From the NCBI GenBank assembly GCA_009786125.1, contig WQTU01000139.1, positions 8,483 through 72,482 of the forward strand: a stretch of 64,000 nucleotides of DNA, read 5' to 3'. A program made the position numbers. Position 1 is the first letter of the stretch; every line of letters begins with the position of its first letter. Origin of the DNA: Spirochaetota bacterium. GTDB lineage: Bacteria > Spirochaetota > Spirochaetia > CADAEX01. Below are positions 24,001-27,000 of this stretch, one piece after another.

Positions 24001-27000
24001 GATATATGGTAATAATTGGACTTACAACAGCTAAAAAAAACCCAGAAATAATTCCCAAAAGAAAACCTCCCCCTATATCGCCATCGCGCCCCTTCGCACC
24101 TCCAAAGAAAGCACCTATCATTAATTTAACTATAGTTCCTAATGAAGCGCCAATGAAAACCAAAAAAATAGTGGCAAACACCATATCCTCGGGGAAATCT
24201 GAACCAGCAGTCAAACCTAAGCCAACAATCAAACCTAAAACAGCACCAACAACCATCCATATACGTTCTTTTTTTACTTGCTTCCTGAAAGCCGTAACAT
24301 TATCAATATTTTCCTGTACTAAAATAGCGGTGCATTTATAACACAAAGCAGTTCCAGCATAGTCACCGATACTTACGCCATATGTATCATAACAATCTCG
24401 ACAAATACCTGTTCCACATCCCCTGCATAATGCTGCTGCTTGTTTTGACGGATGGTGACCACACTCAATACCTGCTTCCAATACACACTCGCGGCATAAA
24501 CCTGCATATTTATTACCAGGTTTGCTAAAAAGATTAACACAATTTCTACAAATCCCCTTTCCGCATCTTTTGCATTGCGCTACTGCTTGTTCGTCTTCAT
24601 GAAAATAACATCCAATTGCCATTCTAATTTCCTCCTCAATTTCCTTGTGTGTTTATATCTAATGGTTATTGAACCGTATAGACCAAATTTATTTCCCGCA
24701 TTCTAAAATTTAACACGGCTGTATGAATCCAGTGATTCTGCCAATCTGTTCAGTTTTGGTTGCGCTGCTTCAAGCGGACCAATAGGCGATTCAATTAAAG
24801 CCGCAATTTTCACCATTAGATTACGGTATTGCTCTCCCTGATAGTCATTCCATTCAGCCGACTGTTGTGATGTCTGTCGGACATCTCTTACGGCTTTTGC
24901 CAGCTCTTTAATGATCGCACCAATATCAGCATTAATTTTACGAATTGCCTCTGAATTTGCTTTGACATTTGACACAATATTCTCCTTTTCTATAAGTTGA
25001 CTTTTTCGTATTCTTCAAGCGTTTTGTAGATTTCAACCAGTTTCTCAAGGATCTCAAATAAAGCATCCTTTGGTTCCCGCAATTTATCTGTACACTCTTT
25101 CACGATAATTCCGAGCTGATTATATTTTTGATCTCTCCATCCTTGCCCTGCATCTTTGTAGCTTTGGTCCAACCTTAATGTTGACTTGCTTAAGTCCTGT
25201 ATAACTTCATTGCATATTTTTTCCGCTTTTCTTATAGCTTCTTTTCCGACTGAAACCTGTGCCATACAAATTCTCCTTTAAAACTCCTAGAAATTCTCAC
25301 TTAAATACTTATCAACTGCAGCAATACATTTCTCAATATTGCCTACATTTTGTTCCGTGCCTGAAACTGCCTGTGTTTCAAATGATTTTGAAGCAGATAA
25401 CATTGTGTTTATATTGTCATTCATTTTTGCAAGGGAAGCATTCATTCTTTCCTGCTTATTTCTCAATCTGTCTAAAAACCTTTCAGTTGTGCGAAGTTCA
25501 TCTTCCTTTTTCGCTTTTTCGGCTTGTATCACATGTACTTTTTGTTGTAATTGTAAACCGCACTCTTTTAATTTGAATAATTCATTTTCTGAACTTCTGA
25601 TTTCAGACTCTGTTTGATATAATTGATTCCTTCTATCATCGATTTGCTTTTGGATTTTCTCTTTTACCTCGCCTTCTGCTCTTGCAGCGGCTTGTTCCAT
25701 TTCCGAAATTTGCTTCTTAATGTGCATAGCGTTTGTCTGATTAGCCGTTAAATCGTTTTGTGCTGATACCAGTTTTTGTTCTGTCGATTTTATTTCGTTA
25801 TTCATTTGATTTATTGTATCGGCAAGTCTATTTATTTCTGCTTTGTACTGATTAATTCTATTTGTTGTCTCCTCAATTTTTTGCTTGATTTTCTGCATTT
25901 CTAAGTCTGCGGATTTGGAAACAACAGATATTTGTTGCCCTATTCTTGTTGAAAAGCCCGAAATATCAATATAGTAATCATTAAGTGCGGCTTTTACTTT
26001 TGTAAGAGCGTCTTTTGAAACGCTAATTTCGGACATAGTTAAACTTCCTCTGCCGCTATGGCAAAAAATTTATCTATTCCGGAACAAGCTCTTTCGCCGC
26101 TCTCTATAACGGTTTTTGATGTTTTTGCCAACTCGCCAATCCGTGCCTGCAGCGAAGCATAATTGCCATCGTTCCATATATCCCCAACTCTGTTGATTTT
26201 TTCACTTACTTTTCCGGTTGACAGTTTGAAAGCATCAAGCTCCTTTTTTATAGCTGAAGCGTGGTTAATTACCATCTGGTAACCTGCCTTTATCTACAGG
26301 AACACCATTTACTGGGAATTCATAAGCATCCTTGATCAATTCTTGGTCATTTATCTCTTCTAGCATGTGTTGAGCTAAAGCAAAGAACCCTTCTTTTAGC
26401 GACTTTGGGAGCACGTTATATTGTGACCAAAGCAAGGAAAACCGTGCTTTGGGAGATAAATTCGATAAATTTTGCATCATACACTCAGTTGTTAAGCGAT
26501 TATATACTAAAATATTAAGTGCTGTAAAGATAGATTTGAATAATTCTTGTTATTTATCCGAAATCTTGCTAACTTATAAAGTATGCTAGATCCGGCTATT
26601 CCTACTGTGAATGAAAGAATCCGACAGGTTCGTTCTGTTTTAGGGCTATCTCAGGTTAAATTTTCTTCAATTATAGCTCTGTCTAGCGGTTATATAGCTG
26701 GAGTAGAGACAGGTCGAATTTCTGTAAATAGCAGAATGATAAAACTGATATGTTCCTCCTTTAGGGTAAATGAATCTTGGCTGAGACATGGTGAAGGAGA
26801 GATGTTTTCAGAAGATATTATTGAAGATAAGCAGTTCAATAACCTGGTTAATACAGTACGGGCTCTGCCTCCAAAATATCAAGAGTTTCTATTCGAGGTT
26901 TTGGATATGCTGGTAAAACTGAAGGATAAATAACTTCATTAACCGCTTCTACTGTTAAAAGAAGCCGTGGCTTTACCGGTTCTTCTGCCCGGGCAGAGAA

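What the first reader, a model, noticed from the sequence alone, without database searches (positions are those of the whole stretch)
24703..26275. A paralogous family of WXG100-sized proteins carries a W-[NR]-D turn motif instead of W-x-G
Three small proteins (78, 91 and 90 aa) and the N-terminus of the 249-aa coiled-coil protein share a similar opening helix: (S/K)EAIRK..., SKDALTKVKAAL and ASAIKKELDAF.

The three small ones place a Trp at residue 34-43, in AEWNDYQGEQY, GQGWRDQKYNQL and GDIWNDGNYASL. This is the position of the WXG turn in Esx proteins. The Gly is replaced by Asp, and a conserved Tyr follows 3-4 residues after the Asp.

The 249-aa member looks like an LXG-type carrier without a toxin domain.
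Basis: partly seen in the sequence, partly recalled or inferred. Interest (0 to 1): 0.55.

Follow-up and report, generated by a model that had tools for sequence, protein, structure and literature searches.

The report
Esx-like W-x-D hairpins of a mobile secretion cassette
The three small proteins are real relatives of the Esx/WXG100 secretion proteins whose turn reads W-x-D rather than W-x-G (a variant already seen in Helicobacter HP0062), and they belong to a conserved, largely unannotated toxin-delivery cassette that also carries ubiquitin-type E1/E2/JAB enzymes.

Summary
Four minus-strand genes at 24703-26275 encode proteins of 78, 249, 91 and 90 aa. In the small ones Trp sits at residue 34, 43 and 42, inside W-x-D.

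W and D are kept in 231 of 234 homologues from 92 related loci. Profile comparisons link 91~90 (97%), 78~91 (90%) and 90~N-terminus of the 249-aa protein (91%). All beat 60 column shuffles.

The 90-aa family hits Pfam WXG100 (19/19 members) and the H. pylori HP0062 crystal structure, whose own turn is W-R-D. Its AlphaFold model is a helical hairpin with W-N-D exactly at the turn. The 27 best PDB matches are all Esx proteins.

The 249-aa protein is a long, generic antiparallel coiled-coil hairpin. No LXG membership was found.

The genes open an ~11.7-kb operon: B-box membrane protein, a 60-aa mini-protein, E2, JAB, E1, a soluble EccC-like ATPase and an M48 peptidase. This order is conserved, mostly in gut Clostridia including Faecalibacterium.

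There, the W-x-D domain is also fused to polymorphic toxins followed by immunity-like genes. It is therefore most likely a type VII-like targeting module.

The motif itself has precedent. The E1/E2/JAB-linked cassette appears undescribed.

The parts
26039..26275 (-). 78-aa W-x-D hairpin protein (W34-N-D36, Y39). It is the most divergent paralogue and lacks the C-terminal tail motif.
   Evidence: ORF. Family alignment A4 has W34, D36 and Y39 invariant. hhalign to the 91-aa family gives 90%, E 1.5e-6, against a shuffle maximum of 17. There is no direct Pfam or PDB hit. The structure was not predicted.
25287..26036 (-). 249-aa long antiparallel coiled-coil hairpin. Its N-terminal helix is related to the W-x-D family.
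   Evidence: The AF2 model has pLDDT 90, with helices 8-25 and 28-119, a turn at 120-121, then helices 122-224 and 233-247. The N-terminal 60 residues match the 90-aa family at 91%, E 1e-6. Fold matches are generic. It is conserved in the same position in related loci.
24990..25265 (-). 91-aa W-x-D hairpin protein (W43-R-D45, Y48) ending ...EEYEKVNL.
   Evidence: A3 has W43, D45, K47 and Y86 invariant. Six of 28 family members hit Pfam WXG100, best E 2e-4. hhalign to the 90-aa family gives 97%, E 1e-10. The same domain forms the N-terminus of toxins in related loci.
24703..24975 (-). 90-aa W-x-D hairpin protein (W42-N-D44-x-Q-G47) ending ...LDSYSRVKF. It is the member closest to known WXG100 proteins.
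   Evidence: Pfam WXG100 hits 19/19 family members. The profile finds HP0062 at E 1.6e-4. The AF2 hairpin has W-N-D at the turn. The 27 best Foldseek PDB hits are all Esx proteins.
23693..24622 (-). 309-aa membrane protein with two N-terminal B-box-like zinc fingers and about three transmembrane helices.
   Evidence: Pfam zf-B_box at E 5e-4, below its cut-off. Hydrophobic segments lie at 121-139, 147-165 and 188-206. It is conserved after the 90-aa gene in all long loci.
23210..23392 (-). 60-aa mini-protein with a conserved ...V-P-x-G-K-L-A end followed by 0-4 variable residues. It is the candidate substrate or modifier of the E1/E2/JAB enzymes.
   Evidence: It is 50-100% identical across loci, mostly 60-95%. 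Thirty-one of 53 distinct homologues end exactly at GKLA. A7 lists the invariant columns. It has no Pfam or PDB relative.
22693..23208 (-). 171-aa E2-like protein with an invariant FICTADP cysteine.
   Evidence: PADLOC E2 models at E 1e-8. C122 is invariant in A5. There is no PDB sequence hit.
21382..22368 (-). 328-aa protein with an N-terminal JAB/MPN isopeptidase domain (HRHPG...S..D).
   Evidence: Pfam Prok-JAB at E 2.5e-7. NCBIfam Cap3 and 6A-MBL cap2_3 models. PADLOC JAB models.
20255..21379 (-). 374-aa ThiF-type E1 adenylating enzyme.
   Evidence: Pfam ThiF at E 1e-24. PADLOC E1-E2 (Cap2-like) models at E 2e-25.
15946..20226 (-). 1426-aa EccC/EssC-family FtsK/SpoIIIE ATPase. It has one Walker A motif (G878ATGSGKS) and no transmembrane helix.
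   Evidence: NCBIfam T7SS_EccC_a at E 2e-34. The best PDB hits are EccC 4nh0 (E 1e-30, aligned to its residues 276-480), EccC5 and YukB. Hydropathy and motif scans cover the window protein and 47 homologues.
15070..15930 (-). 286-aa membrane M48 metallopeptidase, the last gene of the cassette.
   Evidence: Pfam Peptidase_M48 at E 3e-23. Four hydrophobic segments. It is found after the ATPase or the toxin-immunity genes in 33 of the related loci.
26499..26528 (-). Promoter-like site (TTTACA-18-TATAAT, 11 of 12 matches) upstream of the first ORF of the operon.
   Evidence: This is a consensus match only; promoter-like matches as a whole are not enriched in the region (31 found against 43.9 expected).
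14863..14885 (-). Terminator-like hairpin after the M48 gene, the likely operon end.
   Evidence: This is a consensus match only.
26583..26933 (+). Divergent 116-aa putative helix-turn-helix regulator (assigned by reading the sequence only).
   Evidence: ORF; it was not scanned against Pfam. A homologue sits in the same divergent position in L029. An unrelated helix-turn-helix-like gene lies upstream in 19 genome loci.

Best explanation
The 78-, 91- and 90-aa proteins are Esx-like helical hairpins of the WXG100 superfamily. They belong to a branch, shared with Helicobacter HP0062, in which the turn reads W-x-D instead of W-x-G.

The Trp keeps its place at the end of helix 1. The Asp sits immediately before the first residue of helix 2. 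There it can act as a helix N-cap in place of the turn-permitting Gly. This last point is inference from the model and from general helix-capping preferences.

Together with the 249-aa long hairpin, they are the constant helical-protein set of a mobile ~11.7-kb type VII-like cassette. The motor of that cassette is a soluble EccC-family ATPase with a single active P-loop domain.

By analogy with EsxA/EsxB pairs and LXG-Lap bundles, I infer three steps:
- They pair into antiparallel helical bundles. The adjacent 91/90 paralogues are the obvious pair.
- They display C-terminal Y-x-x-[VTI]-x-[LFI] tails.
- They are recognised by the ATPase.

In related cassettes the same 91-type W-x-D domain is the N-terminus of polymorphic toxins that are followed by small immunity-like genes. 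So the W-x-D domain is the targeting module for toxin export.

The window's own cassette has the core genes but no toxin gene.

The E1/E2/JAB enzymes and the 60-aa GKLA-ended mini-protein probably add a conjugation and deconjugation step that controls the machine or its cargo. The target of that step is unknown.

Shown here: homology, fold, position of the motif, conserved gene order and toxin fusions. Inferred: dimerisation, ATPase recognition, export and the role of conjugation.
For: Sequence:
- Pfam WXG100 hits 19/19 members of the 90-aa family (best E 1.2e-7) and WXG100_2 hits 18/19.
- WXG100 hits 6/28 members of the 91-aa family.
- The profile hit to HP0062 is E 1.6e-4, with W-x-D aligned.
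- The paralogues are linked by hhalign with shuffle controls and by HMM cross-hits within the window.

Structure:
- The AF2 hairpin has pLDDT 89, with residues 42-44 (W-N-D) as the turn.
- The top 27 Foldseek PDB hits are all Esx/WXG100 proteins, including HP0062 and CFP10 (the CFP10-ESAT6 complex).

Context:
- The ATPase is EccC/EssC-family.
- The whole gene order is kept in 11 long metagenome loci and 46 genome loci.
- Forty-one distinct proteins carry a full-length 91-type W-x-D domain fused to other domains. These include ADP-ribosyltransferase (E 2e-32), WHH/colicin DNase and papain-fold glutamine deamidase.
- Most of these fusions are followed by a 60-170-aa same-strand ORF.
- One fusion has W-G-G at the motif position.

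Tail motif Y..[VTIS].[LIFM] at the C-terminus: 70/84 (90-aa family), 51/79 (91-aa family), 32/41 (toxin N-domains), against 16/2211 control ORFs.

Literature:
- HP0062 is described as Esx-like, with WRD in the hairpin bend and an FtsK/SpoIIIE neighbour (PMC3397514).
- WXG domains are described as export signals of toxins for YueA-like ATPases (PMC3113570).
- 'Mobile versions of T7SS' are described with solo WXG proteins and an ATPase in which only one FtsK domain is active (PMC3482391).
- LXG plus Lap proteins form a composite secretion signal (PMC10801868).
Against: - The window's own 90-aa protein scores 16.8 bits on Pfam WXG100, below the 27.3-bit cut-off.
- The 78-aa family has no direct Pfam or PDB hit and is tied in only through the 91-aa family.
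- Foldseek E-values are weak (0.05-0.5), as is usual for short helical hairpins.
- The ATPase has no transmembrane helix in the window protein or in 47 homologues.
- No EssA/EssB/EsaA or EccB/D/E-type membrane component, and no YukD-like protein, was found. How anything would cross the membrane is therefore unexplained.
- The window comes from a spirochaete contig, which would have two membranes.
- No toxin is encoded in this window.
- Some toxin fusions have no obvious immunity ORF (L031, L050, L051, L073).
- No multimer prediction or experiment was possible.
Confidence: 0.72

Rival explanations
1. This is an intracellular conflict (anti-phage or abortive-infection) system, not a secretion system. 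The E1/E2/JAB module works like CBASS Cap2/Cap3. The W-x-D hairpins are cytoplasmic sensors or adaptors. The ATPase acts on invading DNA or on protein complexes. The fused 'toxins' are suicide effectors.
For: - The E1, E2 and JAB proteins match defence-system models, namely PADLOC E1-E2, E2 and JAB, and NCBIfam 6A-MBL cap2_3 and Cap3.
- The ATPase is soluble, and no classical T7SS membrane subunits are present.
- Several toxin genes lack an adjacent immunity ORF.
- The cassette is mobile: it sits next to integrases and its proteins are identical across species.
- WxG-FtsK pairs have been reported next to DNA-processing and TerY-P modules (PMC4978471).
Against: - The constant N-terminal domain combined with swapped C-terminal toxin domains and a small downstream ORF is the classic exported polymorphic toxin-immunity layout (PMC3482391).
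- The ATPase's best relatives are the D1 domains of EccC and YukB secretion ATPases, not DNA pumps.
- Two dedicated membrane proteins (B-box/TM and M48) are conserved in the cassette.
- PADLOC finds no match for the small proteins, apart from one weak hit (DrmD, E 0.024) for the 90-aa protein, nor for the cassette as a whole.
Confidence: 0.15
2. The small W-x-D proteins are non-secreted targeting factors or chaperones. They would be Lap-like, or T3S-chaperone-like as proposed for HP0062. They escort cargo to the ATPase and are recycled rather than exported.
For: - The HP0062 authors noted chaperone-like traits: a small acidic dimer with an amphipathic C-terminal helix (PMC3397514).
- Lap proteins are small helical partners required for LXG toxin export (PMC10801868).
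- The 78-aa family lacks the C-terminal tail motif, at 0/57.
Against: - In studied T7SS, the WXG100 core proteins are themselves secreted (PMC10801868 introduction).
- The 90- and 91-aa families carry the same conserved tail as the toxin N-domains.
- Cassettes without any toxin gene, such as this window, L043, L049 and L053-L056, still keep all four helical proteins.
Confidence: 0.1
3. These are unrelated helical or coiled-coil proteins whose resemblance to each other and to Esx proteins is compositional.
For: - Many weak Pfam hits are to generic coiled-coil families.
- The Foldseek E-values are poor.
- The 249-aa protein matches only generic coiled coils.
Against: - Column-shuffled and reversed controls never approach the real hhalign scores.
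- W and D are kept in 231/234 homologues.
- The 90-aa profile finds only 95 of 1.84 billion library proteins at E<=1e-3. Nearly all of them, including the weakest, have W-x-D at the aligned position.
- Synteny with an EccC-type ATPase is conserved.
Confidence: 0.02

Closest known systems
HP0062 of Helicobacter pylori (PDB 2GTS, 3FX7)
   Same: It is an ~86-aa helical hairpin with W-R-D at the hairpin bend and no signal peptide. It is encoded near an FtsK/SpoIIIE ATPase, HP0066 (PMC3397514, PMC4978471). It is the best PDB sequence match of the 90-aa family, at E 1.6e-4 with W-x-D aligned, and a structural match at TM 0.73-0.76.
   Different: The sequence match covers only residues 1-57. I could not examine the HP0062 neighbourhood with these tools, so whether it has E1/E2/JAB, B-box or M48 genes or paralogue sets is unknown. 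The function of HP0062 is itself unknown.
EsxA/EsxB (ESAT-6/CFP-10) WXG100 proteins of T7SSa and T7SSb
   Same: They share the size, the helix-turn-helix hairpin, Trp at the turn, adjacent paralogous gene pairs, linkage to an EccC/EssC ATPase and a conserved C-terminal tail. The top structural matches are B. anthracis EsxB, S. aureus EsxA and GBS WXG100.
   Different: Asp replaces the defining Gly. The tail motif is Y-x-x-[VTI]-x-[LFI]-COOH, not the mycobacterial Y-x-x-x-D/E (the latter is from my own knowledge). The partner ATPase is soluble, with one active domain. The classical membrane subunits are absent.
WXG-domain polymorphic toxins and 'mobile versions of T7SS' (Zhang et al. 2011, 2012)
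   Same: An N-terminal WXG-like domain is fused to swapped C-terminal toxins with downstream immunity genes. An ATPase with several FtsK-like domains, of which one is active, is paired with solo WXG proteins (PMC3113570, PMC3482391).
   Different: [quoted passage not shown] It does not mention E1/E2/JAB, B-box or M48 partners. Here the cassette lies mainly in gut Clostridia and in a spirochaete, and it does carry toxins.
LXG toxins with Lap targeting factors (T7SSb)
   Same: Several small helical proteins plus an elongated helical hairpin are encoded together with toxins, and a composite helical-bundle secretion signal is the working model (PMC10801868).
   Different: The 249-aa protein shows no LXG profile match, no L-x-G turn and no toxin domain. 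Its fold matches are generic. The toxins here use a short ~91-aa W-x-D domain instead of a ~200-aa LXG domain.
CBASS Cap2/Cap3 and related bacterial E1/E2/JAB modules
   Same: A ThiF-type E1, an E2 with a catalytic Cys and a JAB isopeptidase are encoded together. They match the Cap2 and Cap3 models.
   Different: E1 and E2 are separate proteins. There is no cyclic-nucleotide synthase. The partners are a T7SS-like ATPase, Esx-like proteins and a 54-60-aa GKLA-ended mini-protein.

Membership tests
WXG100 superfamily (Pfam PF06013, Esx proteins) | A protein of about 100 residues that forms a helix-turn-helix hairpin. | tested here: met
   For the 90-aa protein, the AF2 model has pLDDT 89 with helices 8-41 and 45-89. 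The top 27 PDB fold matches are all Esx proteins. The 78- and 91-aa proteins were not modelled.
WXG100 superfamily (Pfam PF06013, Esx proteins) | A W-x-G motif at the hairpin turn. | tested here: not met
   W is kept and sits at the turn, but the third position is Asp in 231/234 homologues. Gly occurs there in one toxin fusion (W-G-G) and in one distant library protein (W-S-G).
WXG100 superfamily (Pfam PF06013, Esx proteins) | A significant match to the family profile. | tested here: inconclusive
   In the 90-aa family, 19/19 members match at E<=0.1 (best 1.2e-7), but the window protein itself scores 16.8 bits against a 27.3-bit cut-off. In the 91-aa family 6/28 match. In the 78-aa family 0/19 match. 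The latter two families are joined by profile-profile comparison.
WXG100 superfamily (Pfam PF06013, Esx proteins) | Genetic linkage to an FtsK/SpoIIIE (EccC/EssC) ATPase. | tested here: met
   They share an operon with an ATPase that matches T7SS_EccC_a at E 2e-34 and PDB EccC 4nh0 at E 1e-30. This linkage is conserved in 57 long loci.
WXG100 superfamily (Pfam PF06013, Esx proteins) | Antiparallel homo- or heterodimer forming a four-helix bundle. | not testable with these tools
   Only single-chain prediction was available. Adjacency and paralogy of the 91/90 pair are suggestive only.
WXG100 superfamily (Pfam PF06013, Esx proteins) | ATPase-dependent secretion. | not testable with these tools
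   This needs an experiment.
HP0062-like W-x-D branch | Sequence relationship to HP0062 with W-x-D at the aligned turn. | tested here: met
   The A2 profile finds 2gts/3fx7 at E 1.6e-4, with W-N-D aligned to W-R-D. Of the 94 profile hits aligned (95 reported in a library of 1.84 billion), nearly all keep W-x-D.
LXG domain (Pfam PF04740), tested for the 249-aa protein | [quoted passage not shown] | tested here: not met
Type VII secretion system (T7SSa/T7SSb and variants c-j) | A membrane-anchored EccC/EssC ATPase. | tested here: not met
   The ATPase family is met, but no hydrophobic segment was found in the window protein, and 0 of 47 homologues has one.
Type VII secretion system (T7SSa/T7SSb and variants c-j) | A YukD/EsaB ubiquitin-like protein and dedicated membrane subunits (EssA/B, EsaA or EccB/D/E). 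| tested here: not met
   Pfam and NCBIfam scans of the cassette proteins show none. Clustering of flanking ORFs shows no further conserved membrane protein. A B-box/TM protein, an M48 peptidase and the GKLA mini-protein are present instead. The published variants c-j carry no ThiF or JAB (PMC11217815).

The most novel reading that the evidence does not exclude
The cassette is an undescribed type VII-like toxin-delivery system. In it, genuine E1, E2 and JAB enzymes conjugate and trim a 54-60-aa modifier ending in G-K-L-A, and so gate the export of W-x-D-tagged cargo by a soluble EccC-like ATPase through a B-box/M48 membrane module.

It is mobile. It is common in human-gut Clostridia, including Faecalibacterium, where every component is annotated 'hypothetical'. 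It has also reached diderm spirochaetes.

If so, it would give a natural test case for the long-unexplained link between ubiquitin-like proteins and type VII secretion.
Probability: 0.3. Interest if true: 0.8.

Novelty: new variant of a known kind. Interest (0 to 1): 0.6.

Why it matters
The W-x-D turn shows that the 'defining' Gly of WXG100 proteins is dispensable across a whole branch of the superfamily. Motif- or cut-off-based annotation therefore misses these proteins. In Faecalibacterium they are all labelled 'hypothetical'.

More importantly, they mark a conserved 12-gene cassette that joins Esx-like proteins, an EccC-like motor and polymorphic toxins to a complete E1/E2/JAB set. Canonical type VII systems carry a ubiquitin-like protein (YukD/EsaB) that is not conjugated and whose precise role is still unclear (PMC11217815).

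A relative with real conjugation enzymes would make that link experimentally testable. It would also point to an unrecognised antagonism system in abundant gut commensals.

Tried and rejected
- **PDB profile searches, 91- and 78-aa families.** They found nothing meaningful: vimentin at E 0.024 and designed proteins.
- **Pfam, 78-aa family.** Nothing.
- **NCBIfam and PADLOC, small proteins.** Nothing useful.
- **60-aa mini-protein.** It has no Pfam or PDB relative. The hits to designed TIM barrels are helix-strand fragments.
- **Two ORFs that are not conserved.** The 71-aa ORF at 26265-26480 and the 80-aa ORF at 22432-22674 have no homologues in related loci. I do not count them as parts of the system.
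- **Papers that could not be read.** Burroughs et al. 2011 (PMC5938088) and 2009 (PMC2732565) might describe E1/E2/JAB cassettes of this kind, but neither is held. Prior description therefore cannot be excluded.
- **Literature searches.** Searches combining WXG/T7SS terms with ThiF, JAB, E2-like or B-box found no description.
- **A first tail-motif regular expression.** A version with an acidic residue at Y-2 fitted only the 90-aa family. I replaced it with the simpler Y..[VTIS].[LIFM] motif.
- **Chance resemblance.** Rejected by shuffle and reversal controls.
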